From positions 11,094,235 to 11,158,234 of the forward strand of contig NC_057716.1 in assembly GCF_004010195.1 (NCBI RefSeq): a DNA stretch of 64,000 bases, given 5' to 3'. The notes under the pieces are model-generated. The model was given only the letters and a program-made list of their open reading frames with translations, was not told the DNA's origin and ran no database searches. The translations under genes and the position numbers were made by a program. Source of the DNA: Chiloscyllium plagiosum (taxonomy: Eukaryota). Shown one piece after another: positions 1 through 62,590 of the stretch; positions within the stretch are counted from its first letter, which is position 1, and each line of letters opens with the position of its first letter.

Positions 1-332
1 CCCCCCACCTTGTCTCAGTCCCAACCCTCGAACTCAGCACCACCTTCCTAACCTGCAATCTTCTTCCTGACCTCTCTACCCCCACCCCCACTCCAGCCTA
101 TCACCCTCACCTTAACCTCCTTCCACCTATTGCATTTCCAACACCCCTCCCCCAAGTCCCTCCTCCCTACCTTTTATCTTAGCCTGCTTGGCACACTCTC
201 CTCATTCCTGAAGAAGGGCTCATGTCCGAAATGTCAATTCTCCTGCTCCTTGAATGCTGCCTGACCTGCTGCTCTTTTCCAGCAACACATTTTCAGCTCT
301 GATCTCCAGCATCTGCAGTCCTCACTTTCTCC
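1..332 (+). mobile_element. Penelope-like element 3' end/pLTR (family 1) with degenerate hammerhead-like motif
   Basis: CTGAAGA-A-GGGC-TCAT-GTCC-GAAA-TG-TC at 208-235; tail ...gatctccagcatctgcagtcctcactttctcc recurs many times in the window. Confidence 0.7.
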
Positions 333-539
333 TAAACTCCAATGGATACATGGACAACTTGTCCAAACTTTCCACATCTTCAAACAACTCTAATGAAATT
401 GTCAAACATGATATGCATTTCAACAACCTATTTGATTTTGCCCAATTATATCATGATTTTCTAAATGATCCGCTCCCACCTTCTGAATAATGGATTCCAC
501 CATTTTCCCAATGACAGATATGAATCCAACTGGCTGATT

Positions 540-1021
540 GACAAATGGAAGGGGATGGAGTTGGTGGGGGAGATAGCTGAGAATGTGATAGGTAGATGAA
601 GTAGGGGTGAAGGTGATAGGTCGGAGAGAAGGGTGGAGCAGATAAGTGGGAAGGAAGATGAATAGGAAGAGCAGGTCAGGAGGGCAGTGCTGAGTTGGAA
701 GGTTGGATCTGGGATAAAGGGGGGGGAGGTGGGGGTGGAAATGTTTCTCAGATCCAACCTTCTAGCTTGGCATCATCCCCTTGACCTGTCCTACCAGTCC
801 ATCTTCCTTCCCACCTATCCGCTCTATCCTCCTCTCCGACCTAGTACCTTCATCCCTATTTCATCTACCAAGTCTCCTTGGGCCACATCCTCATTCCTGA
901 TGAAGAGCTTATGCTCGAAATGTCGATTCTCCTGCTCCCCGGATGCTGCCTAACCGGTTGTGTTTTTCCAGCACACATTCTTTGAAACCGATCTCCAACA
1001 CCTGCAGTGCTCATTTTCTCC
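540..1021. mobile_element. inverted pair of Penelope-like 3' fragments (family 1)
   Basis: About 600-720 is the reverse complement of about 745-860; CTGATGA-A-GAGC-TTAT-GCTC-GAAA at 897-920. Confidence 0.65.
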
Positions 1022-9164: not shown

Positions 9165-10080
9165 GTAAGAATTTATATAAATGATTTGAATGAGAATATA
9201 GAAGGCATGGTTAGTAAGTTTGTGGATGACACCAAAATTGGCAGCTTAGTAGACAATGAAGAAGATTTTCTAAGATTGCAAAGGGATTTTGAAAAATTGG
9301 TCAATTGGCTGGAAAATAGCAAATGGATTCAATCTGGATAAATGTAAGGGATTACATTTTGGTACAAAAAGCAAGGGTAGGGCTAAGACAATTAATGATA
9401 GGGTCTTGGATAGTGTTGTAGAACAGAGGGACCTAGGGGTTCAGTTGCATAATTCTTTGGTGTTTGTGTCACATATTAACAGGATGGTTAAAAAGATGTT
9501 TGGCACACTTGCCTTCATTGCTCAGTCCTTTGTGTATAAGAGTTGGGAAGTTATGTTGTGGTTGGACAGGGCATTCTGGAATACTGTATCTAGTTCTGGT
9601 TGCCCAGTTATGGGAAGGATATTATTGAGCTGGAGAGGGTTCAGAAGAGTTTTACCAAGTTGTTGCCAGAAATGGAAGGTTTGAGTTATCACTATATACA
9701 GATGAAGAAGGACACCACTTTGACTGGGACAACATCCATCCTAGGACAGGCGAAACAGAGACACGCACAGAAATTCCTAGAGGCCTGGCATTCAAACTAG
9801 AACTCCATCAATAAACACATCGATTTCGACCCCATTTACCAACCTCTGAGAGAAAGAACCGGAAATGACATGAGTTATGAAGAAAGGATGGATAGGCTGG
9901 CACTTTTTTCACTGAAGTGTAGGAGGTTGAGACAAAACATGATAGAAGTTTATAAAATAATGAGAGGTATAGATAGAGTTAATGGTAGTTGTCTTTTCCC
10001 TAGGATGGGGAATTTCAAGAGTAAAGGACACGTTTTTCAGGTGAGAGGAGAGAGATTTTAAAAAGACATGAGGAGCAAAT
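9165..10080 (+). mobile_element. CR1 (HER1-like) LINE RT/3' fragment interrupted by a Penelope fragment
   Basis: IYINDL...SKFVDDTKIG and LERVQKSFTKLLP motifs; interrupted at about 9687-9870. Confidence 0.85.
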
Positions 10081-10446
10081 GGTTCATGTGTCTTGGTCTG
10101 TTATGGTGGGTGATATCATTTTTGGTTCTTTTTCTCAGAGGTTGGTAAATGGGGTCAAAATCTATGTGTTTATTGATGGAGTTCCGGTTTGAATACCAGG
10201 CCTCTAGGAATTCCCATGTGTGCCTCAGTTTAGCCTGTCCTAGGATGGATGTGTTGTCCCAGTCGAAGTGGTGTGCTTCTTTGTATGATAGACCCACTAT
10301 CACTACATACAGAACACCAGTGCTTCACCGGAGTCTCACTGATGATGTAACCTAGCATGGTGATGAAACGTCTGAGAACAAACCTGCCAGCTCAGTGAGC
10401 AAACTTACAACCTGAACCTCAACCTGAGCTACAAATCTTCTCAAAA
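9687..10446. mobile_element. Penelope-like (family 3) GIY-YIG C-terminal fragments in both orientations plus pLTR
   Basis: HHFDWDNTSILGQAK..EFLEAW on + (about 9700-9870) and - (about 10080-10290); hammerhead-bearing end at 10310-10446. Confidence 0.75.
10334..10377 (+). ncRNA. minimal type I hammerhead ribozyme-like motif
   Basis: TCTCA-CTGATGA-T-GTAACC-TAGCAT-GGTGAT-GAAA-CG-TC^TGAGA: 5-bp stem I, intact core, imperfect stem II, palindromic ACGT stem/loop III. Confidence 0.7.
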
Positions 10447-10563: not shown

Positions 10564-10908
10564 CTTTATCCCTTTTGTACTGTTACATTGGACAGCTAAC
10601 AATAATGGATAGAGATCGGATAATTGAGCCCAGACTTTTGAGAGTGTCTGCTTTTATTGGGCAACCTCTCATCAGTTGAGTGTTTGTTAGAGAGTTGCAC
10701 CATATTTGAAGTTATTACTCTTTTTGAATAAAAACATTTGTTTTTACCACAACAATGTACACTGAACTCTCTAACAAAGGGTCTCCTGATGAGAGGTTAC
10801 CCAATAAAAGCAAACGTTCTCGAAAGTCTGGGCTCAGTTATCTGATCTCCATCCACTATATTGTTAGTTGGCCAATACAACTGTACAAAAAGTACAAAGG
10901 GGTGAAGT
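10564..10908. repeat. long imperfect inverted repeat (MITE-like fold-back)
   Basis: Arms of about 135 bp (about 10564-10700 and 10760-10908), e.g. tgagcccagactt/aagtctgggctca and cttttattggg/cccaataaaag; about 60-bp spacer. Confidence 0.85.
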
Positions 10909-14329: not shown

Positions 14330-14505
14330 AAATACAGATAATGCTGGAAAATCTCAGCAGGTCTGAAGCATTTGTAGAGAGGAAACAGGGGTAATGTTTC
14401 AAGTCCAGTACAACTCTTCTTCAGAAGTAAGGAAGATTCTGAAGAGGAGTTGAAACACCAACTCTGTTTCTCTCTCCACAGCTGTTGCCAGACCTGCTTA
14501 ATTTG
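14330..14505. mobile_element. fold-back PLE-terminus element (family 4)
   Basis: ctcagcaggtctgaagca...gagaggaaacag paired with ctgtttctctctccacag...ccagacctgct; central ttcttcagaa...ttctgaaga. Related pieces near 7110, 23245/24110, 31570, 49930 and 50210. Confidence 0.55.
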
Positions 14506-17305: not shown

Positions 17306-17512
17306 GGAGAAAGTGAGGACTGCAGGTGCTGGAGATCAGAGTCGAGAGTGTGGTGATGGAAAAGCACAGCAGGTCAGGCAGCATCCGAGGAGCAGGAGAA
17401 TCGACATTTTGGGCATAAGCCTGATGAAGGGCTTATGCCCAAAACATCGATTCTCCTGCTCCTCAGATGTTGCCTGACCTGCTGTGCTTTTCTAGCACCA
17501 CACTCTTGACCC
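17306..17512. mobile_element. fold-back family-1 PLE-terminus element with 16-bp TSD
   Basis: Inverted arms around ctgatgaagggcttatgccc; TSD ttattctgaacttcag at 17291-17306 and 17513-17528. Confidence 0.85.
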
Positions 17513-36934: not shown

Positions 36935-39900
36935 ATGGAATGGTTAGAGCAACAGTTAGAGGCTATGAGGAATTTATAAGACCAAGGGGATGCGATGGAT
37001 TGCAGTTATTAGAAGGGAGAAAAGTTACAGGTACAGTCACATAGATGGGTTAACTCCAGGAAAGGTAAGAGAAGTAGGCAGTTAGTGCAGGAGTCTTCTG
37101 TGGCTATCCCCATTTCAAATAAGTGTGCTGTTTTGGAAAATGTAGGGGTTGATGGATTCTCAGGGGAACGTAACACAAACAGCCAAGTTTCTGGTATTGA
37201 GACTGGCTCTAATGCAATAAGGGGTACATCAGGTTCCAAGAGAATGGTTGCGTTAGGGGACTCTCTAGTCCAAGGTACAGACAGATGTTTCTGTGGCCAG
37301 CAGCGAAAAAACAGAATGGTGTGTTGCTTCCCTGATGCCAGGATCAAGGATGTCTCAGAGAGGTTGCAGAATGTTCTCAAAGAGGGAGGGTTCAGCAGGA
37401 GCTCATCGTACACATTGGAACCAACAACATAGGAAGGGAAAAGGATAAGATTGTGAAGGGCGATTACAGAGAGTTAGGCAGGAATTTAAAAAGGAGGTCC
37501 TTGAGAGTAGTAATATCTGGATTACTCCCAGTGCTACGAGCTAGAAAGGGCAGTTATAGGTGGATAGAGCAGATGAATGCATGGCTGAGGAGCTGGTGTA
37601 TGGGAGAAGGATTCACATTTTTGGGTCATTGGATCTTTTGGGGTAGAAGTGACCTGTACAAGAAGGACTGATTGCACGTAAATTGGAAGGGAATTAAAAT
37701 ACTGGCAGGGAAATTTGCTAGAACTGCTTGGAAGGATTTAAACTAGCAAGGTGGGGACGTGGGACCCAGAGAGATATTTAGGAAAGAGATCAATCTGAGA
37801 CTGGTACAGTCGAGAAAAGAAGTGAGTCAAACAGTCAAGGCAGGCAGGAACAATGCAGAGAACAAGGTAGGAATGATAAATTAAACTGCATTTATTTCAA
37901 TGCAAGGGGCCTATCAGGGAAGGCAGATGAACTCAAGGCAGGGTAAGGACATGGGACTGGGATATCATAGCAATTACAGAAACATGGCTCAGGGATGGAC
38001 AGGACTGGCAGCCTAATGTTCCAGGATACAAATGCTACAGGGAGGACAGAAAGGAATGCAAGAGAGGAGGGGGAGTGGTGATTTTGATAAGAGATAGCAT
38101 TACAGCTGTACTGAGGGAGGATATTCCCGGAAATACATCCAGGGAAGTTATTTGTGTGGAACTGAGACATAAGAAAGGGATAATCAAATTATTGGGCTTG
38201 TATTATAGACCCCCTAATACTCAGAGAGAAATTGAAAAACAAATTTGTAAGGAGATCTGTAAGAATAATAGGGTGGTTATGATAGGGGATTTTAACTTTC
38301 CAAGCATAGACTGGGACTGCCATAATGTTAAAGGTTTAGATGGACAGAAATTTGTTAAATGTGTACAAGACAATTTTCTGATTCAGTATGTGGATGTGCC
38401 TACTAGAGAAGGTGCAAAACTTGAATACTCTTGGGAAATAAGGCAAGGCAGGTGACTGAGGTGTCAGTGGGGGAGCACTTTGGTGCCAGCGACCATAATT
38501 CTATTAGTTTTAAAATAGTGATGGAAAAAGATAGACCAGATCTAAAAGTTGAAGTTCTAAATTGGAGAAAGGCTAATTTTGACGGTATTAGGCAAGAACT
38601 TTCAAAATCTGATTGGGGGCAAATGTTCGCAGGTAAAGGGACGGCTGGAAAATGGGAAGCCTTCAGAAATGAGATAATGAGAGTGCAGAGACAATGTATT
38701 CCTGTTAGGGTGAAAGGAAAGGCTGGTAGATATACAGAATACTGGATGACTAAAGAAATTGAAGGTTCGGTTAAGAAAAGGAAGGAAACATATGTCAGGT
38801 ATAGACAGGATAAATAGAGTGAATCCTTAGAAGAGTATAAAGGCAGTTGGAGTATACTTAAGAAGGAAAACAGGAGGGCAAAAAGGCAACATGAAATAGC
38901 TATGGCAAATAGAGTTAAGGAGTATCCAAAGGGATTTTACAAATACACTAAGGACAAAAGTGTAACTAGGGAGAGAATAGGACCCTTCAAATATCAGCAA
39001 GGCGGACTATGTGTGGAGCTGCAGAAGATGGGGGAGATACTAAATGAATATTTTGCATCAGTGTTTACTGTGGAAAAGGACATGGAAGATATAGAATGTA
39101 GGGAAATAGACATCTTGAAAAATGTCCATATTACAGGGGAGGAAGTGCTGGCTGTCTTGAAATGCATAAAGATGAATAAATCCCCAGGGCCTGATCAGGT
39201 GTACCCTAGAACTCTGTGGGAAGCTAGGGAAGTGATTGTTGGGTCTCTTGCTGAGATATTTGTATCATCGATAGTCACAGGTGAGGTGCCGGATGACTGG
39301 AAATTGGCTAATGTGGTGCCACTATTTAAGAAAGGTCATAAGGACAAGCCAGGGAACTATAGACCAGTGATCCTGACGTCAGTGGTGGGCAAGTTGTTGG
39401 AGGGAATCCTGAGGGACAGGATGTACATGTATTTGGAAAGGCAAGGACAGATTCGGGATAGTCAACATGGCTTTGTGCGTGGGAAATCATGTCTCACAAA
39501 CTTGATTGAGTTTTTTTGAAGAAGTAACAAAGAGGATTGATGAGGGCATAGCGGTAGATGTGATCTATATGGGCTTCAGTAAGGCATTCGACAAGGTTCC
39601 CCATGGGAGACTGATTAGCAAGGTTAGATCTCATGGAATACAGGGAGAACTAGCCATTTGGATGCAGAACTGACTCAAAGATAGAAGACAGAGGGTGGTG
39701 GTGGAGGGTTGTTTTTCAGACTGGAGGCCTGTGACCGGTGGAGTGCCACAAGGATCGGTGCTGTGTCCTCTACTTTCTGTCATTTACATAAATGATTTGA
39801 ATGTCAGCCCAAGAGGTACAGTCAGTAAGTTTGCAGATGACACCAAAATTGGAGGTGTAGTGAACAGTGAAGAGGGATACCTCAGATTACAACCGGATCT

Positions 39901-40722
39901 TGACCAGATGGGCCACTGGGCTGAGAAGGGTGCTTTCCTGAAGGGAAAGCAAATCTTAGCAAGACTTATACACTTAATGGTAAGGTCCTAGGGAGTGTTG
40001 CTGAACAAAGGGACCTTGGAGTGCAGGTTCATAGCTCCTTGAAAGTGGAGTTGCAGGTAGATAGGATAGTGAAGAAGGCGTTTGATATGCTTTCTCTTAT
40101 TGGTCAGAGTACAGAGTACAGGAGTTGGGAGGTCATATTGTAGCTGTACAGAACATTGGTTAGGCCACTTTTGGAATATTGTGTGCAATTCTGGTCTCTT
40201 TCCTATCGGAAGGATGTTGTAAAATTTGACAGGATTCAGAAAAGATTTACAAGGATGTTGCCAGGGTTGGAGGATCTGAGCTATAGGGAAAGGTTGAATA
40301 GGTTAGGGCCCTTTTCCTCGTAGCATCAGAGACTGAGGAGTGACCTTATAGAGTTTTACAAAGTCACGAGGGGCACAGATTGGGTAAATAGACAAAGTCT
40401 TTTCCTTGTTGTGGGGGAGTCCAGAACTAGAGGGCATAAGTTTAGGGTGAGAGGGGAAAGATATTAAAGAGACCTAAGGGGCAACTTTTTCACGTAGAGG
40501 GTGATGCATGTGTGGAATGGGCTGCCAGAGGAAGTGGTGGAGGCTGGTACAATTGCAACATTTAAAAGACATCTGGATGGGTTTATGAATAGGAAGGATT
40601 TGGAGGAATATGGGCTGGGTGCTGAGCGGTGGGACTAGATTAAGTTAGGTAATCTGTATGGAATGGATGAGTTGGACTGAAGGGTCTGTTTCCATGCTGT
40701 ACACCTCTATGACTCTATGACT
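36935..40722 (+). mobile_element. near full-length decayed CR1 (HER1-like) LINE
   Basis: ORF1 SGNH esterase (GDSLV, HIGTN), APE endonuclease (GDFN, SDH), RT (NYRPV, QHGF, PQGSVL, KFADD); multiple frameshifts; (CTATGA)n tail. Confidence 0.92.
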
Positions 40723-42941: not shown

Positions 42942-43216
42942 TAGCTAACCATCAGACACCTCTCATCAACAATGCTACTAACCAGCTTTTACAAAGCAGT
43001 AATATTCACTGATGTTCAATTTCAGTTCTGCTCAATCAACACCTACCCCGAATATAGCCTTAGTCAACACCTGATGCTTGAGGCGATAGGAGTGATTGCG
43101 GTTGACATACATACCAAAGCGCACCAACAAAATGGAAGGCCAAGGGAATTGAGGAGAAAACTCTCCACTGTTTCAAATCACAACCAGCAGAAAGGAATAT
43201 GGCTCTGGTTATTGAA

Positions 43217-43450
43217 GGAGAAAGTGAGGACTGCAGATGCTGGAGATCAGAGCTGAAAATGTGTTGCTGGAAAAGCGCAGCCGGTCAGGCAGCATCCAAG
43301 GAGCAGGAGAATCGACGTTTTGGGCATGAGCCCTTCTTCAGGAATGAGCCCTTCTTCCTGAAGAAGGGCTCATGCCCGAAACGTCGATTCTCCTGCTCCT
43401 TGGTTGCTGCCTGACCTGCTGCGCTTTTCCAGCAACACGTTTTCAGCTCT
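43217..43450. mobile_element. young fold-back family-1 PLE-terminus element with 17-bp TSD and hammerhead-like cores on both strands
   Basis: Near-perfect inverted arms of about 90 bp; CTGAAGA-A-GGGC-TCAT-GCCC-GAAA-CG-TC at 43358-85; TSD gctctggttattgaagg at 43202-18 and 43446-62. Confidence 0.9.
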
Positions 43451-46282
43451 GGTTATTGAAGGTTAATCATTTCTGCCTCAAGGCACCATTGCAGGAGTTC
43501 CACAGGCTAACTTCATGGATCCAAACACCTCAGCTACTTCAATGATCTTCCCTCCACCATAGGATCAGAAGTGGGGATGAGTACTGATGTCTACTCAGTA
43601 CTGCCGGTGTTGGACTGGGGTGTACAAAGTTAAAAATCATACAACACCAGGTTATAGTCCAACAGATTTATTTGGAAGCACTTGCTTTCGGAGCGCTGTT
43701 CCTTCATCAGGTAGCCGTGGAGTATAAGATCATAAGACACAGAATTTATAGCAACAGTTTACAGTGTGCTGTAACTGAAATTATCTATTGAAAAAGATTT
43801 GGATTGTTTGTTAAGTTTCTCATCTTTTAGAATGAACATGTTCGTTTCAGTTTTTTCATATGTATATCGCAGAACTTTTTTTAAGTTACATTCTCAAGTG
43901 AGTGTCATGTTGGCCCAGATAATGCATTGAAGGTGTGAGGTACCCTGTGTGAGACTGTCTGTGCCACAATGTTCAGACTGACTCTGATCTATGTGTGAGC
44001 GAATGAGAAAGAGCTTGTGCATGAGAGAGGGTCTGCCTGAGTGTATGGGTCTGCAGGATTGTGTGTGTCTGTAGGAGTATGTGTGTCTGTCTGTGTCTGT
44101 GTGTAGTGCAGTGGGGTCACCTGTAGTGTGACATGAATCCAAAGTCCCACCTGAGGCCATTCCCATGGGTGCCGAACTTGGCTATCTGCCTCTGCTCAGC
44201 CACTTTGCGTTGTTGCCTGTCCCGAAGTGCACCTTGGAGGACGGTCACCTGAAGATCTGAGGTCAAAGGTCCCGGATGGCTGTAGTGCTCTCCGACTGGG
44301 AGGGAACACTCCTCTCTGTTGATTGTTGTGCGGTTTCTGGATTAGTGGTGCTGGAAGAGCACAGCAATTCAGGCAGCATCCGAGGACAGGCAAAATCGAC
44401 GTTTCGGGCAAAAGCCCTTCATCAGGAATAAAGGCAGAGAGCCTGAAGCATGGAGAGATAAGCTAGAGGAGGGTGGGGGTGGGGAGAGAGTAGCATAGAG
44501 TACTTGTAGAGAGAAGAGGAAAACTTCTTCAAGGCAGGCATCCTTGCAAGAGGATTCGCAGTAGGGATTCCAGCATCTGCAGTCATTGTTTTTACCTCAA
44601 CCATAACACCACACAACCCTGTCATTGGCAACCACTGTAAGATGTGTCAGATCATTGACATGGATACTACCATTTCACATCGGGACATCACCCACCATGT
44701 ATGCGGCAGGTACTCGTGTGACTTGGCCAGCATTGTCTCTCTTGAATAAGATACTCCAAGGCATATAAGATATTCCAAGACATGGTGTATTGGCGAGACC
44801 ATGCAGACGCTACGACAACACTTGAATGGACACCGCGCAACGATCGCCAGACAGGGATGTTCTCTCCCTGTCGGGGAAGACTTCAGCAGCCAAAGACATT
44901 TGGCCTCGGATCTTCGGGTGACCATCCTCCAAGGTGAACTTTGGGATAGACGACAATGCAGAATCGCTGAGCAGAGACTGATAGCCAAGCTCAGTATCCA
45001 TGAGGACAGTCTCAACCAGGATCTTGGGTTCATGTCATACTACAGGTGACCCCACCACACTATACACTCACACACACACTCACACTCACATACAAGCACA
45101 CATACACACACAAGCACATATATACAGACATATACACACACTCTCACACAAACACACTCACACACCCACCTACTGTCACAGAGAAATACTTCATCACTAA
45201 CTTACACACTCTCTCAAGCGTGCACACAAACACACACACGTCCTTCTCCCTCACACACACACAAACACACACACGGGGTGAATTTAAATTTGCGGATTTG
45301 AGTTTGCAGATACATTATACTTTGTTCAAAAAGCACACAATCTATCGACAGTCAGTCAATGTGACAATTTTAAATTCCTACTTTGGAAATAACAACAGTG
45401 TGATTCCAGGTTGGGGACAAAACAGACTCTAACTTCACACCTTTAATGCATTGTCTGAGCTGGGCTGTCTCCTTATATTTATCTTACAAATACTGATAAA
45501 ACCTTAAATTATCTTGGGGCAGTAAATTCTGGGATTTGCATATTAATCAATCAAAACCTGCCTCACAATTCTGAGTGATTACATCTAGGTTTGTCTAATA
45601 TATTGCATCAGTTTTATGACACTGATCGTTTATAAATTCTGTGTTCTATGTATCTTTCCCCACAATCTACCTGATGAAGGAGCAGTGCTCCAAAAGCTTG
45701 TACTTTCAAATAAACCTATTGGATTATAACCTAGTGTCCACCCGAGTCCTACACCGGCACCTCCACGTCATAAGTTAGATAACAGAAACCATTTATGCAG
45801 TGACCGTTTACTTCGTTTTCTTTATGACTGATACTTCCTTTATTTTCATTAATTAGTTAGAAATACAGAAGCTTCGACTCTACTGTGATCCACAGCAAAG
45901 TGATCGGGAAACTGCCTGTGAAATCCCTTCAGTGGTGAGTAATTTAGATAATTAGCCATAACCCACAAAGGACCACAGTAGAGAAAACCATATACAGTAT
46001 ATGCTTATTTGGCTTGAGGGACACAAGTCTGCAAGCATGGGGCAAGTCGAGGAGACAGACCTCCATGAATCAGGTCTGGGACTGAACTAATACTTTTGCC
46101 ATCATTCTGCATCATATTGTAGCTATCTGGTCAACTGAGCTAATCAAACCCCTGCTGTGATGAACAAAATAGTCCACTTAACGTCTCAGCCTGGGAAACT
46201 CTTTTAATTTGTACATAATATTTGCATGTTGAGTATATTCCACGAATATTTAACTCTACAATTTATAAATCATTTTCCAATT

Positions 46283-47100
46283 NNNNNNNNNNNNNNNNNN
46301 NNNNNNNNNNNNNNNNNNNNNNNNNNNNNNNNNNNNNNNNNNNNNNNNNNNNNNNNNNNNNNNNNNNNNNNNNNNNNNNNNNNNNNNNNNNNNNNNNNNN
46401 NNNNNNNNNNNNNNNNNNNNNNNNNNNNNNNNNNNNNNNNNNNNNNNNNNNNNNNNNNNNNNNNNNNNNNNNNNNNNNNNNNNNNNNNNNNNNNNNNNNN
46501 NNNNNNNNNNNNNNNNNNNNNNNNNNNNNNNNNNNNNNNNNNNNNNNNNNNNNNNNNNNNNNNNNNNNNNNNNNNNNNNNNNNNNNNNNNNNNNNNNNNN
46601 NNNNNNNNNNNNNNNNNNNNNNNNNNNNNNNNNNNNNNNNNNNNNNNNNNNNNNNNNNNNNNNNNNNNNNNNNNNNNNNNNNNNNNNNNNNNNNNNNNNN
46701 NNNNNNNNNNNNNNNNNNNNNNNNNNNNNNNNNNNNNNNNNNNNNNNNNNNNNNNNNNNNNNNNNNNNNNNNNNNNNNNNNNNNNNNNNNNNNNNNNNNN
46801 NNNNNNNNNNNNNNNNNNNNNNNNNNNNNNNNNNNNNNNNNNNNNNNNNNNNNNNNNNNNNNNNNNNNNNNNNNNNNNNNNNNNNNNNNNNNNNNNNNNN
46901 NNNNNNNNNNNNNNNNNNNNNNNNNNNNNNNNNNNNNNNNNNNNNNNNNNNNNNNNNNNNNNNNNNNNNNNNNNNNNNNNNNNNNNNNNNNNNNNNNNNN
47001 NNNNNNNNNNNNNNNNNNNNNNNNNNNNNNNNNNNNNNNNNNNNNNNNNNNNNNNNNNNNNNNNNNNNNNNNNNNNNNNNNNNNNNNNNNNNNNNNNNNN
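46283..47100. other. assembly gap (818 N)
   Basis: Run of n. Confidence 1.
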
Positions 47101-48007
47101 CGGCAGGGCTGGGAGCTGGGAGCTGGTGTGGGTGTAGAGCTGGGAGTGGGGTCGGAGCCAGTACCTGGAGTGGGTGTGATGGTGGGGGGAATGGGGGTAG
47201 AGTCATGAGCAGGGGTAGTGTTCCCCTCGGGGTTCTGGGGGGTGGGGATAGTGACAGTGGGGTCTGTGGGGGGCGTGTCAGCAGAATGCAGGTGAGTGGC
47301 GCTGGTGGGGGCGGAATTGGTGGCAGGCACGGCAGTAGGGGTGGCGGAAGTCACTGAGGGTGTGGCATCGGCGATGATGTGAGGGCCGGAAGTGGCTGTG
47401 GGAGTGGCCATGATGGGGGCAGAAGTGACATCATCAATCAGCGTCGTGGTGGTAGCTGCATCAGCCGCATGGCTAATGGTGTTTCCGTGGCCAGGGGAAT
47501 CTTCTGGAATGTTTGAGGAGCGCTGGTTATGGAGGTGGGTGGATAAAAGTTTGTTGTACTTACAGTTTTTGATGTTTGAGATGGAGTTGAAATACTGTTT
47601 GTTGAGAGTATGGATTCTCCTGAGGATGTAGTACAGAGTGGGTCCTTTGCAATTCTGAGAGAGTGTAGCCCTCAGCTGAGGGAGGGCAGACTGTAGAGAG
47701 GTTAGGTGCCGGCGCATTGCTGCAAGCGTGGAGCGGAGGATCTTGATGGAGAACCGTTGCTGGTGTTTTTGAATCTGTAGTCTGTACTGTTTGTCCTGTT
47801 CGGGTCCGAACTCTGCTGGTTTAAAGGTGGTCTGGAGTCTGTGTGGGATGAGTTGGTTACGGAGACAGGCACTGAGGAAGCAAATGTGGCTGTGATAGTG
47901 AGTTTGTTTCAGGACATGGTTGAAGAGCTTCAGGGCTGAGGAAATGACCTCGGAGTTGCAGTGAGAGAGAGACTCCCTGAGATTCTTGTAGAGAGAGGAG
48001 GAAAACT
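47101..48007 (-). mobile_element. open N-terminal part of a Penelope-like ORF running into the assembly gap
   Basis: About 300 uninterrupted codons (FSSSLYKNLRESLSHC...HSHICFLSACLRNQLIP...) then a Thr/Pro-rich linker; the same FSSSLYK start occurs at about 44505-44560 next to a pLTR. Confidence 0.65.
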
Positions 48008-50662
48008 TGATGCTGCCTGAATTGCTGTGCTCTTCCAGCACCACTAATCCAGAATCTGGTTTCCAGCATCTGCAGTCATTGTTTTTACCTGATTGTTGTG
48101 CGGTGTCCATTCATCCGTTGCCGTAGCCACTGCTCAGTCTTGCCAATGTACCATGCCTCAGGACATCCTTGCCTGCAGTGTATGTGATAGACAACATTGG
48201 CTGAGTCGCGTGAGTACCTGCCACCCCACTGTACCACACACATACACACAGATACACAGAGACACAGAGAGATGCACACTCACAGACAGACAGACCTACA
48301 GACCCATGCACTCACGCAGACTCTCTGTCATACACAAGTTCTCTCTCATATACTCACACACACACACCCACGCACACATGCACCCTCTCACAGACTTATA
48401 CTCATTTACACTCACACGTACATACTCTCTTACAGACACTTATAACCAAACCCCAACACACACACACTCACATGCATGCACGTGCATGCGTACACACACA
48501 CACATACACATATAAGTTTGAGGGGTGAATTTGTACTTGCAGAATTTATTTTGTTTTGCTCAAAAACTGCATGAATCCATGTAAGATTCCGTAAATCCTT
48601 TCTTTAAGATTAGAATCAGTCTGAACATTGCAGCACAGACAGTCTCACACAGGGTACCTCACACCTTCAGTGCATTATCTGGGTCTACATGACACCAATT
48701 CTTAAAGTTTAAAGAAGTTCTGTGATTTACATATGAATAAACTGAAACCAACATGTTCATTGTAACTCACAAAGTAAACCTTTGCTATAATTTCTGTGTC
48801 ATATGATCTTATACTCCACAACCACCTGGTGAAGGAGCAGCACTCCGAAAGCTAGTGCTTCCAAATAAACCTGTTGGACTATAACCTGGTGTTGTGTGAT
48901 TTTTAACTTTGTACGATACTATTTGCAACTCCTTACATATTCTTCATGTACAAACAAAGCAAAATTTGGACAACATTCAACCTTGTGCTGATATGTAATG
49001 AAACCAAAGTACTCGAAAAGCTCAGCAGTTCATGCTTCTGTTATAGAAATGAGTTTCTCTGGCACTATCTGTTTTTATTTCAGACCTCCAGTATATGCAG
49101 AATTTTGTTCTTATTTGGGTTGATAAGTGCCAAGAGTCACTCCTGCTGTACACGTGCTAGATAATGGCTGTCTGCAACAAAACTATTTTCAATCATCTTC
49201 CCTTGATATTCAAGGGATTCACCATTGTTGAATCTCCCACTATCAACATCTTGGGATTTACCTTTGATCAGAAACGGAACTGAACTAGACTAATGCCTCT
49301 GACCCCTAACCCATCCATCATCTCCAAGGCGCAACTCAAGAGTATGATGGAATACACTCCTCTGGCCTGGATGATTGTAGCCCCTGACCATTCTGACTTA
49401 GAGATATATTGCCAATCCACTGTCACTGGGTGAGAATTCTGGAACTTCCTTCCTGACAGCATTATAGATGATAAGAAATAGGAACAAGAGTAGGTTGCTT
49501 GGTTCCTCAAGCCTGCTCCACTATTCAATAGATCATGGCTGATCCAACAATCCTCAAAGTGGAGCCCCTACAACCAAAGCACAGCAAGAAGACAGCTCAC
49601 CACCACCTCCTGAAACATTATGTCAATGGTAGGGGCCAGGTGTTGGAAAATGGGATTAAAATAGATGGATACTCGATGACTGTTGCAGACAGAATGGGCC
49701 AAAGAGTTTGGTTCTATGCCATAACAAAACATTTTATGAATTTTCCAGGGCAACCAGGGATAAGCAATCTTCTTCCAAACATTAATTTACACCCATTTTA
49801 CATTTCAACTTCTCTGTTGCTCAACTTTGCAATCCCATTTTGTCTTTTGCACTGGGCCTCCACATCATCTGTTTCCTCTGCTCCGTCTCTCCCTCTGTTG
49901 AAAGTATAAAAAGAAACACAATCTTTCAGTTCTGGAGATGGGTCATATTGAACACTAACTGTTAATTTTGGTTTTTCTTTCTTTCTACAGAGAAAACGTT
50001 TCTCCAGCATTTTTGTGTACTTGTTTCAGATTTCCAGCATCTACTATACTTTTCTAAATTAGTGATGAACAATAAAAATTGATCTAGCCAGTCACAGCCA
50101 CATTCTGTATCCCACTTACTATATTCCTCCGACTAATTCATTAATCTTTTAACGGTTCATGTTTGCGGGCTCTTAACCAAGTTAATCGATATTACTATAA
50201 TAAAGATCTACAGATGCTGAACACCTGAAACAAAAAAATTGAAACTGCTGGAGAACCTCAGCAGGTCTGGCACCATCTTTGGGACGAAAGTAGAGTTATG
50301 TTTCAAGTCCGTTGACTATCAATCAGAACTGTTAGTCGCTAGGAGAATGTGGTACTTATGCTGAAGTCAAAGTTGGGATGAGCGGAGAGACGACTGGATT
50401 GTTGGAGATGAAGCACACTGAGAGGAATGAAAGGGGTAGATAGACAAGGCGATTATGGACAGCAGGCCAGGACAGAATAAAAGCTGAATGAATGAAAATA
50501 AGAACTAAGAGTAAGAAAATGGTTTGGCTGTGCTGAATGTAACTCATTTAATGTGATAATGGGCATTGGAGTAAATTAATTAGTGGTAAAAGTAACCCAA
50601 ATCATAACAGCGAGAAAGACTGCAGGTGCTGGATTGGCTGAACTGGTCCTCAGATTCCTGAT

Positions 50663-50895
50663 GGAGAAAGTGAGGACTGCAGATGCTGGAGATCAGAGCT
50701 GAAAATGTGTTACTGGAAAAGCGCATCAGGTCAGGCAGCATCCAAGGAGCAGGAGAATTGACGTTTCGGGCATGAGCCCTTCTTCAGGAATCCTGAAGGT
50801 TTCCTGAAGAAAGGCTTATGCCCGAAACGTCGATTCTCCTGCTCCTTGGATGCTGCCTGACCTGCTGCGCTTTTCCAGCAACACATTTTCAGCTC
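50663..50895. mobile_element. fold-back family-1 element inserted into the hammerhead core of another family-1 copy
   Basis: TSD ctcagattc(c/t)tgatg at 50649-63 and 50893-907; host continues aagggcttatgcccgaaacgtc. Confidence 0.8.
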
Positions 50896-50974
50896 AGATT
50901 CTTGATGAAGGGCTTATGCCCGAAACGTCAATTCATTGGATGCTGTCTGACCTGCTGTGCTTTTCCAGCAAATC

Positions 50975-51465: not shown

Positions 51466-51640
51466 AAAGTTAAAAATCACACAATACCAGGTTACACTCC
51501 AACAGGACTCCACAACCATCTGATGATGGAGCCAGCTATGAAAGCTAGTGCTTCCAAATAAACCTGTTGGACTATAACCTGGTTTTGTGTGATTTTTTAA
51601 CTTTGTACACCCCAGTCCAACACCGGGATTTCCAATCTCC
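51466..51640. mobile_element. fold-back family-2 PLE-terminus element abutting the CpG island
   Basis: aaagttaaaaatcacacaataccagg paired with cctggttttgtgtgattttttaacttt; ctgatga...gaaagctagtg core. Confidence 0.75.
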
Positions 51641-52080
51641 ATCCGGGCCGACTTTGCTAACTCCCCATTGACAGCGAACCGACCTCCTAAACCTACTGAT
51701 CCCCCCCCAACCTTGATGAGTGACAGAAAAGGCAATCCCAATCCCCTGGAGGAGGAAGGAGGCGGGGCGGAAAGGGAGAGAGCCTGCTCGGCACATCACG
51801 TGAGCAACACCAGCCCCGCCCCCCCCGCCGCCGACCGCCACGTGACCCTGTGGGGGGTGTTTGGGGGAAGGCCGACCAGGAGCATTCGCCCGCAGCCAAT
51901 GGAAACGCAGCGCTGGCGGCCTCGAGACCTCGCCCCCCCATCCAAACACATTGACCAATGAGAACGTACGCCCCCTCCAGCCGCTCGCGCCTGCGCATTG
52001 TAACACCAATCAGCGGCTGTTGTTTTTTTTTCAATCTGGTGTTGGAGGCGCGCGGTGCAGAATTCTAACCGGCGGTGAAG
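51640..52080. promoter_or_regulatory. CpG-island, TATA-less housekeeping-type promoter
   Basis: Abrupt CpG/GC enrichment; GC boxes (51764-70, 51814-22); E-boxes ATCACGTGA (51795-803) and CACGTGAC (51839-46); CCAAT at 51896, 51955 and 52006; NRF1-like CGCGCCTGCGCA (51986-97). Confidence 0.85.
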
Positions 52081-52810: not shown

Positions 52811-53013
52811 GGGTGGCTCAGTGGTTAGCACTGCTGCCTCACAGCGCCAGGGACCCGGGATCATTTCCCACCTCAGGCGACTGTCTGTGTGGAGTTTGTA
52901 CATTCTCCCTGTCTCTGTGTGTAAACTCCATACAGTCTTCCAAGAGTGGAATTGAACTCTGGTCCCTGGCACTGAGAGGCAACAGTGCTAACCACTGAGC
53001 CACCATGCTGCCC
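52811..53013. mobile_element. inverted pair of HE1-like SINE tRNA heads
   Basis: ggtggctcagtggttagcactg...gtggagtttg paired with aaactccatacag...cagtgctaaccactgagccacc. Confidence 0.8.
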
Positions 53014-55429: not shown

Positions 55430-58400
55430 TTGCACAGCTACTGTCTTTGCTGTTTGAGTTCAAATATCTCTGGACATCGGAGTGCCTCTGGGGAAAACTA
55501 ACAGTGAAATTCACAGCTGATCTTGGAAGAACCTGTGTGGGAGAACTCACAGCATGGGACCAGAGAAGTGCATAGTTTTTAAGTGTAACCCTGCTGTAAA
55601 TCTACAATAGCGAGTAGAGTCGGTTCTTTCTTGATCTGTCTCTTGATTTAAAGTTTAAATGTATAAGCCATAAATACTAAGTTAGCCTGGAGCAGTTTTT
55701 TTTAGAACAAAAAGATAGTTTTTTAGAATAATTAGAACAATATCTTCTGAGTCTGTAGATTGTGAATGAACAAAGATGGCCTTTAATAGAGTGATGTGCT
55801 CTTTTTTTGTTGGATGTGGGAGTTTAGGGAGAATTTCCATGTTACTGATGATTATGTCTGCAAGAACTGTCTTTTGTTGTGAATCCTATCAGATCGCATG
55901 GATCGGTTGGAACAACAGTTAGAGGCAATGAGGAATTTACACGAGCTAGGGGGTCTAATGGATGTTATTTATAGGAAGGGAGACAAGCTGCGGATACAGT
56001 CAGGTTAGATGGGTTAACTTTAAGAAAGGTAGGAGAGGGAGGCAAGTAGTGCAGGAATTGTCTGTGGCCTTGTGGCTTTCCCCATCTCAACAAAGTATGC
56101 TGTTTTGGAAAATGTAGGGGGTGATGGACTCTCAGACGAATATAGCATGAACAGTCAAGTTTCTGGTACTGAGAATGGCTCTAATATAGTCAGGTTCCAG
56201 ATGATCGATTGTGGTAGGGGACTCTCTAGTCAGAGACACAGATGTCTCTGTGGCCAGCAGCTAGAAATCCAAAATGATGTGTTGCCTTCCTGGTGCCAGG
56301 ATCAAGGATGTCTCCGAGAGGGTGCTGAATGTTCTCATGGGAGAGCAGAAGGTCATTGTACACATTGGAACTAACGACATAGGAATGGAAAAGGGTGAGA
56401 TTTTGAGGGGACAATATAGAAAGGCAGGAATTTAAAAAGGCTCTCAAGGGTAGTAATATCTGGATTACTCCTGGTGCTACGAGCTAGTGAGAGTAGGAAT
56501 AGGAGGATAGAGCAGATGAATGTATGGCTGAGGAGCTGGTGTACGGGAGAAGGATTCATATTTTTGGATCATTGGAATCTCTTCTGGGTTGGAACTGACT
56601 AGAAGGATGGATTGCACCTGAATTAGAAGGGGACTAATATATTGGCAGGGAGACTTGCTAGAGCTGCTTGGGAGAATTTAAACTATTAAGGTGTGGGGGT
56701 GGGACCCAGAGAGAGATGGAGGAAAGAGATCAATCTGAGACTGGTATAGTTGGGAAAAGGAGCAAGTCAAACGATCAAGGCAGGCAAGAACGAAGCAGAG
56801 AACAAGCTCGGTAAATTAAACTGCATTTATTTCAATGCAAGAGGCCTAACAGGGAAGGCAGATGAATTCAGGGCAGGGTTAGGAACATGGCAAATTACAG
56901 AGATGTGGCTCAGGGATGGACAGGACTGGCAGCTTAATATTCCAGGATACAAATGCTGTGGAAGGAGAGGAGGGGGAGTAGCCTTTTTGGTAAGGAATAG
57001 AATTATTGCTGTACTTAGGGAATATATTCAGGGAAGTTATTTGGGTGGAACTGAGAAATAAGAAAGGGATGATGATCACCTTGTTGGGATTGTATTACAG
57101 AACCCCCCCCCCCCATAGTCAACGGGAAATTGAGAAACAAATAATAATAGGCTGGTTATGGTAGGGGATTTTAATTTTCCAAGCATGGACTGGGACTGCC
57201 ATAGTGTTCAGGGTTTAGATGAAGAGGTTTTTAAGTGTGTACAAGAAAACCTTTTGGTTCAGTATGTGGAGGTACCTGCTAGAGAAGATACAAAACTTGA
57301 CCTACTCTTGGGGAAATAAGGCAGGGCTGGTGACTGAGGTATCAGCGGGGGAGCACTTTGGGGCCAGCGACCATAATTCTATTAGTTTTAAAATAGTGAA
57401 GGAAAAGGATAGACTGATCTAAAAGATGATGTTCTAAATTGGAGAAAGGCCAATTTTGAAGGTATTAGGCAAGAACTTTCAAAAGTAATTGGGGGCAGAT
57501 ATTTGTAGGTAAAGTGACGGCTAGAAAATGGGAAGCCTTCAAAAATGAAATAACGGGAGTCCATAGAAGGTATAATTCCTGTTAGGGTGAAAGGTAAGTT
57601 TGGTAGGTGCAGGGAAAGCTTGATGACTAGAGAAATCGAGCTGTTGATTTAGAAAAAAACGGAACCCTACCTCGGGTCGAGATCGAGTGAATCATTAGAG
57701 TATAAAGGCAGTAGGGGTATGCTTAAGAAGGAAATCAGGAAGGCAAAAAGGGGACATGAGATAGCTTTAGCAAATAGGATTAAGGAGAATCCAGAGGGAT
57801 TCTATAAATATATTAAGGACAAAAGGGTAACTAAGGAGAGAATAGGGCCCCTCATAGATCAGCAGGGCAGCCTATGTGTGGAACTGCAGAGATGGAGATA
57901 CTAAACAAGTATTTTGCATCAGTGTTTACTGTACACGAAGGACATGGAAGATATAGAATGTGGGGAAATAGATGGTGACATCTTGGAAGATGTCCATATA
58001 CAGAGGAGGTGGTGCTGGATGTCTTAAAACCCATAAGGGTGGATAAAACTCCAGGACCTGATCAGATGTACTCCAGAACTCTGTGGGAAGCTGGGGAACT
58101 GATTGCTGGGCTCTTTGCTGAGATATTTGTTTCATTGATAGTCACAGATGAGGTGCCAGAAGACTGGAGGTTGGCTAATGTGGTGTCACTATTTAAGAAA
58201 GGCGATAAGGAAAAGCCAAAGTTAAAAATTGCACAATATCAGGTTATAGTCCAACAAGTTTAATTGGCAGCACCAGCTTTTAGAGTGCTGCTCCTTCATC
58301 AGGTGGTAGTGGACAATTAAACCTGTTGGACTATAACCTGGTGTTGTATGATTTTTAACTTTGTACACCCCAGTCCAACACCGGCATTTCCAAATTAGGA

Positions 58401-59725
58401 AGAGCCAAGGAACTATAGACCACTGAGTCTGATATTGGTGGTGGGCAAGTTGTTGGAAGGAATCCTGAGGGACAGGATTTACATGTATTTGGAAAGGCAA
58501 GGACTGACTAGGGATAGTCAACATGGGAAATCATGCCTCACGAACTTGATTGAGTTTTTTTTTGAAGAAGTAACAAAGAGGATTGAGGGCTGACCAGTGG
58601 ATGTGATCTGTATGGACTTCAGTGAGGCGTTTGACATCGTTCCTCACGGTAGACTGGTCAACAAGATTAGGTCTCATGGGGTACAGTGAGAAGTAGTCAT
58701 TTGGATGCAGAACTGGCTTGAAGGTAGAAGATAGAGGGTGATGGTGGAGGGTTGCCTTTCAGACTGGAGGCCTGTGACCGGTGGTGTGCCACAAGCAACG
58801 GTGCTGGGTCCACTGCTTCGTCATTTATATAAATGATTTGATGTGGACATAGGAGACATAGTTGGTTTGTTTACGGGTGACACCAAAATTGGAGGTGTAG
58901 TGGACAACAAGGAAGGTTACCTCCGAGTACAACAGGATCTTGATCAGATGGGTCAATGGGCCCAGGAGTGGCAGATGTAATTTAATTTAGATAAATGAGG
59001 TGCTGCAATTTGGAAGTCAAATCCGGGCAGGACTTAATATAAAGGTCCTGGGGAGTATTGCTAAATAACGTGATCTTGGAGTGCAAGTTCATAGTTCCTT
59101 GAAAGTGGAGTCTCAGGTAGATAGGATAGTGAAGAGTGCGTTTAGTATGCTTTCCTTTATTGTACAGAACATTGAGTATAGGATGTGGGAGATCGTGTTG
59201 CAGCTATACAGGACATTGGTTAGGCCACTTTTGGAATATTGTTTGCAATTCTGGTCTCCTTCCTATCTGAAAGATTTACACAATTGTTGCTAGGGTTGGA
59301 GGATTTGAGCCACAGGAAGAGACTGAATAGGCTAGAGGTGTTTTTCCCGGAGCATCAGAGGCTGAGGGGTGACTTAATTGAGGTTAATAAGATCCTGAGT
59401 GACATGGATAGGATTAATGGACAATGTCTTTTCCCTGAGGTGGGGGAGTTCAGAACTAGAGGGCATAGGTTTAGGGGGAGAGGGGAAAGATTTAAAACGG
59501 ACCTAAGGAGCAACTTTTTCATGCAGAGGATGGTGCGTGTATAGAATGAGCTGCGAGGTGGACGCTGGTATAATTACAACATTTAAGGCATCTGGATAGA
59601 TTTCTGACTAGGAAGAGTTTAGAGGGATATGGGCCAATTCTGTCAAATGCGAGCAGGCTAAGTTAGGATATTTGGTTGGCATGAACAAGTTGGACTGAAG
59701 GGTCTGTTTCCATGCTGTACATCTC
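55430..59725 (+). mobile_element. essentially full-length decayed CR1 (HER1-like) LINE, same family as 36935-40722
   Basis: 5' UTR, ORF1 Cys motif (VTDDYVCKNC), esterase, LNCIYFNARGL endonuclease start, RT and 3' tail; interrupted at 58218-58395. Confidence 0.9.
58218..58395. mobile_element. fold-back family-2 PLE-terminus element inside CR1
   Basis: Inverted arms; minus-strand cctgatgaaggagcagcactc core; imperfect TSD aggaaaagccaa/aggaagagccaa. Confidence 0.75.
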
Positions 59726-60259
59726 TTGTGTTGTATATTTAAGTGTATGAACAAGTAGAATTGTCATTTCTCTATTTGTATTAGGTGAACAAATATATTT
59801 CTTTGTATCGTTTAATTGAATACTTCATATTGAGAGTGCAGGATCACATACCATTAATGTAGTGTCTCCTTTTTTAAGGAATGCAACGTTGCAGCGTTTA
59901 AATTATGGAAAGTGAAGTAATGAATGCAACCGTATCCACCAGCTATTTGGTGTTTTCTGGTAAAATGAAGGAACAACGGAATAGTATTTTGAAAAAGACA
60001 AAATACAATGCATCTTTGATTTCTAAGATTAAGACCAAAATTCTCAGTAAGTATTCTATACTCTTCTCCTTGACTTCTCATCCTATAGTGCTCGTGCACT
60101 AATCTGTTTATTGATATTTAAGTGGCTAATCTAATTGATTTTCTGTCATTCGCAATGCTAGCAGAATGTTGATGGTAAAGGATTAATTGGTGATGACCTT
60201 GAAGGCTGTGGAGAAGTCGGGAGACTGCTGTTGAAGGTGGTCATCAGAAGTGTTATGAT

Positions 60260-61727: not shown

Positions 61728-62590
61728 AAGGGATGCATGTGTATAGTTCCTTAAGTGGAATTGCAGGTACACAGTGAGGTAAAGGTGGCATGTGGCACAC
61801 TTTCCTTCATTGGTCAATGCATTGAGCATAGGATATGGGTGTCACGTTATGGCTGTACAGGATATTGGTTAGGTCACTATTGGAATACTGCACTCAATTC
61901 TGGTCTCCTATAGCAAGGATGATATTAAACTTGAGAGTGTACAGAAAAGATTTACAATGTTGTCTGGACTGGAGACATTAACCTGTAGGGAAGAGTTGAA
62001 TTCATTGGGGCCTTTTTCCGTGGAGTGTCGGAGACTGAGGGATTTCCTTTTTAGAAGTTTATAAAATCGTGAGGGGCATGGATAGGGTGAATACCCTAGG
62101 TCTTGTCCTGTATGAGGGAGTCTAAAGCTAGGGGACATAGATTTAACGTGAGCGAGGACGAATTTGAAAAGGACCCAAAGATCATGCAGATGGTAATACG
62201 TATATGGAACTAGTTGCCAGAGGAAATGGCAATTACAACATTTAGCAGGAATCTGGATGGGTATATGAATAAGAAGGGTTTAGAGGAACAAATGCTGGCA
62301 AATGGGCCTAGTTAGAGACAAAAAAAAACTGCAGATGCTGGAATTCAAATTGGACAGGCAGGAAACTGGAGGAGCACAGTAAGCCAGGCAACATCAGAAG
62401 GTGGAGAAGTCGATGTTTCGAGTATAACCCTTCTGGATTCTTGATGCTGCCTAGCTTGCTGTGTTCCTTCAGCCTCCGCTTGTCTCTACTATGGCAAATG
62501 GTAGTAGGTCAGTTTGAGATGTCTGATTGGAGTGGATGAGTTGGACCGAAGAGACCGTTTCTGTTCTGAATGACTCTGACTCTGACTCTA
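61728..62590 (+). mobile_element. CR1 3' fragment with a nested fold-back element (about 62325-62490)
   Basis: ttggaatactgcactcaattctggtc motif; (TGACTC)n tail. Confidence 0.75.

What the first reader, a model, noticed from the sequence alone, without database searches (positions are those of the whole stretch)
43202..43462. TSD-flanked fold-back mini-elements with hammerhead-like cores: a candidate shark 'retrozyme'-type system
Seen: at least five discrete 180-250-bp elements (17306-17512, 43217-43450, 50663-50895, 51466-51640, 58218-58395; probably 14330-14505 and about 62325-62490) made only of an inverted dimer of a Penelope terminus. Three have clean 15-17-bp TSDs. Each carries a CTGAnGA-N-hairpin-GAAA-(CG/GC)-TH motif or a decayed version, on both strands in 43217-43450 and 50663-50895. 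Known: PLE pLTRs carry minimal hammerheads with palindromic loop 3 that act as dimers, and retrozymes are non-autonomous hammerhead retroelements. Inference: these are non-coding units made by PLE RT/GIY-YIG, either a propagating family or recurrent truncation-plus-inversion products. They would give long dsRNA hairpins with opposed ribozyme cores. Caveat: stem I in family 1 is only about 2 bp.
Basis: partly seen in the sequence, partly recalled or inferred. Interest (0 to 1): 0.8.

Follow-up and report, generated by a model that had tools for sequence, protein, structure and literature searches.

The report
Two-sided Penelope retroelement insertion stubs
The short hairpin-shaped inserts are real, but they are one-off stubs left when a Penelope-like jumping gene copies the start of its own RNA into both sides of a DNA cut, not a self-spreading ribozyme element; their regular anatomy gives a testable picture of how this poorly understood class inserts.

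Summary
The hairpins and target-site duplications (TSDs) are real. The retrozyme reading is not supported. In 100 copies sampled by their 3' tail, 62 were head-to-head pairs; junctions were nearly all different, and this element's junction occurs 5 times against 21,817 tail matches. No listed element has two intact hammerhead cores, and the hairpin buries the core (41.8 kcal/mol). They are the shortest form of the known Penelope-like (PLE) layout: inverted 5'-truncated copy plus one-sided tail. The parent looks Neptune-type. The sample shows rules: one arm ends at the tail and the other about 35 nt earlier (55 of 62); sister arms share subfamily letters (53 of 56); arms stop just 5' of the hammerhead, not at its cut, at an initiator-like A often preceded by an extra G. 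Best model: both nicked strands prime reverse transcription at two staggered internal sites of one uncleaved, probably capped RNA, run off its 5' end and are joined by microhomology. That mechanism is inferred. This scan reported the same phenomenon several times on other DNA of this genome.

The parts
43202..43218 (.). left TSD copy (17 bp including bases shared with the element end)
43217..43348 (-). tail-bearing arm: family-1 PLE terminus, positions +97 to -34 relative to the hammerhead cut residue; 43217 to about 43249 is the tail
43314..43341 (-). damaged minimal hammerhead core (GAAA reads AAAA)
43345..43354 (.). 10-nt junction spacer, a slipped re-copy of nearby arm sequence; exact junction 34-mer found 5 times in the genome
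43355..43451 (+). tailless arm, about -30 to +61..+66
43358..43385 (+). intact minimal hammerhead core, 4-bp stem II, ACGT palindrome, 2 contiguous stem I pairs
43446..43462 (.). right TSD copy
50663..50899 (.). second family-1 head-to-head stub, 15-bp TSD with 1 mismatch; intact core on - strand (50787-50760); inserted at the 5' end of an older copy (50898-50971) that itself starts at -31
17306..17512 (.). older family-1-like head-to-head stub, perfect 16-bp TSD, decayed core
51466..51640 (.). family-3 head-to-head stub: tailless arm +56 to +17, tail arm from about -41 to +78; decayed core
58217..58395 (.). family-3 head-to-head stub inside a LINE fragment: tailless arm +57 to -39, tail arm +8 to +80
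62325..62490 (.). old head-to-head stub of a related family; no core found; 10-bp candidate TSD
14330..14505 (.). old weak fold-back of another family; no TSD and no core found
540..1021 (.). longer head-to-head insertion of the same kind, perfect 13-bp TSD; shows the stubs are the short end of a size continuum
1..333 (+). family-1 copy running at least 234 nt upstream of the cut site, with the TTTATC box and initiator-like TCATTCC before the hammerhead

Best explanation
These are dead-on-arrival, two-sided insertion products of an endonuclease-bearing Penelope-like element (Neptune-type). Coordinates are relative to the hammerhead cut residue (0). Model: (1) the element is transcribed from its pLTR starting near -31, so the hammerhead sits at the very 5' end of the RNA and the ORF starts near +137 [start site inferred]; (2) the protein binds the RNA just downstream of the tail and cuts both target strands about 15 bp apart [TSDs shown; both-strand cutting shown for an anole PLE in vitro]; (3) each 3' end primes reverse transcription internally, one at about +97 and the other at about +55..+72, on the same RNA or two RNAs from one source [end positions and pairing shown; single RNA inferred]; (4) both cDNAs read through the uncleaved hammerhead and run off the 5' end or stop earlier [pile-up shown; cap inferred]; (5) the two cDNA ends are joined by microhomology, often with slipped filler, giving a head-to-head hairpin; if one cDNA is lost a solo stub results, and if the RT jumps to another 3' end a short direct tandem results [products shown; repair route inferred]. 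The hammerhead is a passenger. Confidence is about 0.9 that they are one-off PLE products and about 0.55 for the single-RNA, capped run-off detail.
For: Unbiased tail sample of 100 elements: 62 inverted, 24 solo, 11 at assembly gaps, 3 direct. Partner arm ends at +55..+72 in 55 of 62 and has a tail in 1 of 62. In a second sample chosen by the hammerhead 34-mer (90 loci, 20 shared with the first), 51 of 54 inverted elements have exactly one tail, 27 on one side and 24 on the other, none has two (binomial p 3e-12). Family 3 follows the rule in 18 of 21. The tailless arm reaches further 5' than the tail arm in 36 of 60, which a single snapped-back cDNA cannot make. Sister arms agree at the C/T subfamily site -14 in 53 of 56. 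60 of 148 arms end at -35..-27, only 2 at -60..-36; 11 of 22 jump-back copies also leave from -43..-23; 7 of 12 listed joints in a DNA run land at -31/-30. The non-template base before A(-31) is G 6,718, A 3,102, T 1,230 times genome-wide (61% G); one base further in, G is 1,568 against 9,323 C/T (14%). Some ends run on into the parent's ORF leader (4 nt, 6 nt, and to +168 in L012). In vitro an anole PLE cuts and extends both strands, starts at two internal sites that bound the tail, and uses uncleaved RNA (PMC11167929).
Against: No start site was observed directly: raw RNA reads showed no place where many molecules begin or end. The G excess is partly explained by the partner arm; after removing such cases it is 12 of 21 against 22 of 81 at other positions (p 0.018), and the control is inflated by microhomology with C/T. 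13 of 148 arms extend beyond -60, so read-through or longer templates exist. Two of 21 family-3 and 1 of 62 family-1 elements have two tails. Arm concordance could also come from one subfamily being active at a time or from gene conversion. In vitro, start-site choice did not differ between strands, so pairing is not shown biochemically. L184 and L186 share a junction, and three copies with this element's junction type share a rare letter in the same arm. Samples come from the first 20 Mb of one contig and from young, exact-matching copies.
Confidence: 0.7

Rival explanations
1. A propagating non-autonomous hairpin family (retrozyme-like): master fold-backs are transcribed, processed by hammerheads and re-inserted by the PLE protein.
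For: Very high copy number (15,580 exact hammerhead 34-mers against 81 pLTR-ORF junction 34-mers). Five copies share this junction; a rare C-to-T at +13 (1 of 148 arms in the pool) lies in the same arm of L003, L013 and L012, and L012 keeps the ORF leader on its other arm. L184/L186 share a junction.
Against: 62 of 62 junction strings differ when read from the tail arm, 56 distinct coordinate pairs; 5 of 21,817 share this junction; even the 41 copies most like the query give 31 junction cores. Cores are on opposite strands and buried (41.8 against 3.4 kcal/mol in parent-type RNA). No pile-up at the cut site. The window element lacks the +13 letter.
Confidence: 0.05
2. One cDNA folds back on itself (self-priming, as proposed for rotifer PLE palindromes) and the tail is set later by endonuclease resolution.
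For: Explains sister-arm concordance and microhomology junctions. Proposed in PMC3846280; endonuclease resolution of the tail is suggested in PMC8557442. Fits the 23 of 60 elements whose tail arm is the longer one.
Against: In 36 of 60 the tailless arm reaches further 5' (31 by 8 nt or more), so the tail arm could not be copied from it. Solo copies also end at either site (9 at or before +72, 17 at +96..+103), matching two RT start sites.
Confidence: 0.12
3. Same two-sided priming, but the 5' pile-up is an RT stall at the hammerhead structure (or a processed end) on a longer RNA, and the arms may come from two RNAs.
For: The stop lies at the 5' edge of stem I in both families (family 3: 37 of 44 short arms match 9 nt or fewer upstream of the core). 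13 of 148 arms go far upstream. No start site seen in RNA.
Against: G excess before A(-31); a TTATC box at -28..-32 from that A in 55 of the 56 long copies where such a box was found, across subfamilies with unlike spacers, and TATAAA 40 nt before the core in 4 long family-3 copies; template jumps leave from the same point; two independent RNAs would not give strict one-tail pairing.
Confidence: 0.25
4. Assembly artefact: hairpin chimeras from short-read assembly.
For: 11 of 100 sampled copies abut gaps; the two-tailed L184 has no TSD.
Against: 55 of 62 inverted elements have a TSD, 52 of them 12-17 bp; the same end points appear in independent runs.
Confidence: 0.02

Closest known systems
Complex insertions of endonuclease-positive PLEs: inverted 5'-truncated copy plus 30-40-bp tail at one end (PMC8557442, PMC3846280, PMC2377424; passages read)
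   Same: Head-to-head inverted copy, tail on one end only, TSD, microhomology 5' junctions, partial tandems.
   Different: Here both copies are usually cut down to 95-130 nt, so the whole insert is a hairpin; TSDs are 12-17 bp (8-10 bp in the rotifer paper); copy number is roughly 1e5.
Poseidon of Anolis carolinensis, PAc (PMC11167929; main text and part of methods read)
   Same: Two internal RT start sites bounding the tail, both strands cut and extended, predicted dimer, uncleaved RNA as template, binding region downstream of the start sites.
   Different: The ORF starts downstream of the tail here, not inside the hammerhead; the parent has the Neptune-type linker; strict pairing of the two start sites on opposite strands and the 5' run-off were not reported there.
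Minimal hammerheads of metazoan PLEs (PMC4209133; results and discussion read)
   Same: CUGAnGA, extra base before stem II, palindromic 15.2-16.2, no helix III; pairs on opposite strands 100-700 bp apart were already noted in Schistosoma and ascribed to truncated PLEs; low activity in vitro.
   Different: Stem II is 4-5 bp and stem I only 2-3 contiguous pairs; no shark was named in the parts read.
Non-LTR retrozymes (PMC7761336 passages; bioRxiv 10.64898/2026.07.22.740005 first fifth and passages)
   Same: Non-coding, type I hammerhead, PLE-derived.
   Different: Retrozymes are direct tandem units with a hammerhead in each, giving circular RNA; these are inverted, one core per strand, with no fixed unit.
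L1 twin priming and retroviral strong-stop DNA (recalled, not read)
   Same: Second nick primes a second cDNA, giving an inversion; RT runs off the RNA 5' end after internal priming.
   Different: Arms overlap almost fully and start at two fixed sites; no poly(A), no tRNA primer.

Membership tests
EN+ Penelope-like element insertion (Neptune-type) | pLTR with minimal type I hammerhead | tested here: met
EN+ Penelope-like element insertion (Neptune-type) | 30-40-nt tail at one end of the insert | tested here: met
EN+ Penelope-like element insertion (Neptune-type) | inverted 5'-truncated copy, TSD | tested here: met
EN+ Penelope-like element insertion (Neptune-type) | parent with C-terminal GIY-YIG endonuclease and CX2-5CxxC linker | tested here: met
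   L128 reads CNRKKCKTC then an IIY..LYIG motif; Pfam GIY-YIG E 0.0055, below the curated cut-off; linker criterion from PMC8557442
EN+ Penelope-like element insertion (Neptune-type) | PLE-type RT domain in the same ORF; clade by RT tree | tested here: inconclusive
   two apparent full-length copies have about 3-kb assembly gaps over the RT region; no tree built
Non-LTR retrozyme | direct tandem units, each with a type I hammerhead | tested here: not met
   62 inverted against 3 direct of 100; short direct tandems exist but have unlike junctions
Non-LTR retrozyme | fixed unit that spreads as such | tested here: not met
Non-LTR retrozyme | ends set by the ribozyme cut | tested here: not met
   5 of 148 arms at +1..+4; those inspected have microhomology
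Non-LTR retrozyme | self-cleavage in vitro | not testable with these tools
   folding penalty only
Non-LTR retrozyme | abundant circular RNA | tested here: inconclusive
   one poly(A) single-cell run, unsuited to circles; no recurring back-joints listed for it

The most novel reading that the evidence does not exclude
These stubs are a genome-wide record of the normal PLE insertion step: a protein dimer primes both target strands from two staggered sites on one capped RNA and makes two strong-stop-like cDNAs; joining them, dropping one, or jumping to a 3' end then explains the inverted copy, the one-sided tail and the pLTR in one scheme. A further add-on (about 0.25) is that rare fold-backs which keep the ORF leader, like L012, are re-copied as hairpin RNAs and seed tiny lineages, possibly including this element's junction class.
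Probability: 0.45. Interest if true: 0.7.

Novelty: new member of a known kind. Interest (0 to 1): 0.4.

Why it matters
As a new retrozyme system it does not hold. Its value is as data on an open question: how PLEs make their tandem and inverted layouts and the one-sided tail is called undefined in PMC8557442, and the in vitro work (PMC11167929) leaves the second strand open. Tens of thousands of young stubs give exact predictions for the existing anole assay: paired start sites, one RNA, run-off at a capped end. Side effect: roughly one near-perfect 100-bp hairpin per 27 kb (7 head-to-head pairs read from 36 hits in 191,656 random bases) is a large possible source of dsRNA and of assembly gaps; expression as dsRNA was not shown.

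Tried and rejected
Rfam at E<=1 found no hammerhead model. A hammerhead-cut pile-up was looked for and not found; three apparent +1 ends in family 3 come from a GTGTG subfamily or microhomology. The first 30 loci were chosen by likeness to the query, so they were not used for frequencies. No RNA holder was listed by the run search; this is no evidence either way. Run X22 laid 0 reads (no test); X21 reads come from dispersed copies in host transcripts (94% run on unlike, both directions), so start site, editing and circles could not be judged. A full-length parent ORF could not be read: 7 stretches fetched gave gaps or internal deletions; Pfam found nothing for window 47502-47990. The templated C count before A(-31) and a wider search for the +13 lineage were not run. 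Paper searches for a prior report of paired priming, strong-stop or shark PLE hairpins found none in this open library; Repbase and subscription papers are not covered, and supplements of PMC11167929 and PMC4209133, not opened, may bear on tail pairing and on sharks.

Full report
Observation. The element at 43217-43450 is a hairpin with 97-nt arms, 96% complementary, 10 nt apart, flanked by a perfect 17-bp repeat. The left arm carries about 32 extra bases at its outer end. Read against longer copies, both arms are the terminus of one retroelement, head to head, 3' ends outward. With the hammerhead cut residue as 0, the left arm spans +97 to -34 and the right about -30 to +66. Of the seven listed elements, three have clean TSDs, three weaker ones and one none; only two hold a strict minimal hammerhead and none holds two. 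The motif itself is not chance (3 hits against 0.07).

Parent. Long copies continue upstream into a reading frame with a CX4CxxC linker and a GIY-YIG-like motif (L128; Pfam E 0.0055, below cut-off). By the criterion in PMC8557442 that is Neptune- or Nematis-type. Downstream of the tail the sequence runs into the ORF start near +137. Two copies suggest a 3.6-3.9-kb unit, but their middles are assembly gaps, so the RT was not seen. Exact-match counts are 15,580 for a hammerhead 34-mer, 21,817 for a tail 37-mer and 81 for the pLTR-ORF junction: short stubs vastly outnumber parents.

Is it a spreading family? I sampled without regard to the junction: all first 100 listed tail matches on contig C1 plus one more, giving 100 elements. 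62 were inverted pairs, 24 solo, 11 at gaps, 3 direct. All 62 junction strings differed when read from the tail arm; one pair (L184, L186) is the same when read in the same direction. This element's exact junction occurs 5 times in the genome, with the tail on the left in 3 and on the right in 2. Its spacer is a slipped re-copy that recurs with many different second joints among the 41 most similar copies (31 junction cores), as expected from microhomology repair. Longer head-to-head inserts of the same kind exist (540-1021). So the hairpins are made anew at each insertion.

Is the ribozyme used? The cores are on opposite strands, so a transcript has one. Freeing it from the hairpin costs 41.8 kcal/mol, against 3.4 in a parent-type RNA. 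Arm ends do not gather at the cut: 5 of 148 at +1..+4, against 60 at -35..-27. This fits the anole PLE, which uses uncleaved RNA (PMC11167929), and the low activity of minimal hammerheads (PMC4209133). Stem II and the palindrome co-vary between families, so the motif is under selection in the parents, not in the stubs.

Rules in the sample. First, one tail per element: the partner arm ends at +55..+72 in 55 of 62, earlier in 5, and has a tail in 1. In the hammerhead-chosen sample of 90 loci, 51 of 54 inverted elements have exactly one tail, on either side, and none has two. Family 3 agrees in 18 of 21, with 2 two-tailed exceptions. Second, either arm can reach further 5': the tailless one does so in 36 of 60 (2 set aside), which excludes a single cDNA snapping back for those cases. 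Third, sister arms share subfamily letters: 53 of 56 at site -14, and 17 shared rare variants against 4.4 in shuffles. Fourth, a common 5' limit: only 2 of 148 arms end between -60 and -36, although 13 go further. Copies that jump back into the ORF start leave from -43..-23 in 11 of 22 cases (28 distinct loci). In an independent DNA run 7 of 12 listed joints land at -31/-30, and the top 5' loose ends in RNA reads include -31.

Why -31. The A at -31 sits in TCATTCC, which fits the initiator consensus (recalled). A TTATC box lies 28-32 nt before it in 55 of the 56 long copies where such a box was found, across subfamilies with unlike spacers, and family 3 has TATAAA 40 nt before its core with 37 of 44 short arms stopping within 9 nt of the core. 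The base before A(-31), where not the template C, is G in 61% genome-wide (6,718 G, 3,102 A, 1,230 T), against 14% one base in. An extra G has been read as a sign of a cap for full-length L1 (PMC2831318, passage). The partner arm explains part of the excess; the residue is 12 of 21 against 22 of 81 (p 0.018). This is suggestive, not proof. D. virilis Penelope also starts inside its pLTR (PMC2377424, passages). No start site was seen in RNA reads.

Mechanism. The anole protein cuts and extends both strands, starts at two internal sites that bound the tail, and is predicted to be a dimer. Put together: both nicks prime on one RNA at staggered sites, both cDNAs run toward the 5' end, and repair joins them. 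A lost cDNA gives a solo stub; a jump to another 3' end, mostly +156..+177, gives a short tandem; a jump onto a full-length RNA would give the pLTR (inferred). Run-on into the ORF leader in a few copies shows the template is parent-type RNA.

Against this reading. A rare C-to-T at +13 is shared in the same arm by L003, L013 and L012, which have this or a near-identical junction, and L012 keeps the ORF leader. That fits a tiny copy-of-copy lineage; it was noticed after the fact, the window element lacks the letter, and it concerns a handful of copies. Samples are young copies from one contig region.

Prior knowledge. The layout is described (PMC8557442, PMC3846280; passages), and opposed minimal hammerheads 100-700 bp apart were noted in Schistosoma. 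Retrozymes are direct tandems that give circles, which these are not. Eight paper searches found no report of paired priming or a strong-stop in PLEs. Earlier agents of this scan reached similar readings on other pieces of this genome; my reading was entered before I saw them, and they are not counted as support.

Verdict. Real, known kind, not a retrozyme system. Interest 0.4 for the testable insertion rules.

Noticed in passing
L012 (= L154), L003, L013: Same or near-identical junction and a rare C-to-T at +13 in the same arm; L012's other arm runs to +168 into the ORF start, so it could be a template for rare copy-of-copy events.
   Followed up: partly
L184 and L186 (contig C1, 114 kb apart): Identical filled junction; L184 has two tails and no TSD, so it may be a chimera, conversion or local duplicate.
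   Followed up: partly
L141-L170: 22 of 28 copies holding the pLTR-ORF junction jump from the ORF start back to a second pLTR copy; the shortest give about 200-nt direct tandems with two hammerheads, the form a retrozyme could grow from.
   Followed up: partly
L147, L291, L292: pLTR-bounded copies that lack much of the ORF (L147 joins the N-terminal part to the endonuclease part): possible non-autonomous derivatives that keep the protein-binding leader.
   Followed up: no
window 43602-45770: Large family-3 head-to-head insertion with a nested, rearranged copy of another family at about 44335-44600.
   Followed up: no
window 46263-48110 (- strand): Open frame for the N-terminal part of a related PLE ORF (72% to L147 over 47414-48008), broken by an 818-base assembly gap.
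   Followed up: partly
window 50649-50971: The 50663 stub inserted at the 5' end of an older copy; L035 and L093 show family-1 copies inside family-3 ends, so PLE termini may be favoured targets.
   Followed up: no
window 9705-10281, 10564-10899, 52812-53004: Other inverted repeats unrelated to these families.
   Followed up: no
window 51572-52060: GC-rich stretch just after the 51466 stub, possibly a promoter region.
   Followed up: no
window 36935-40708 and 55898-59726: Two decayed LINE copies about 78% alike; the second carries the 58217 stub as an insertion.
   Followed up: no
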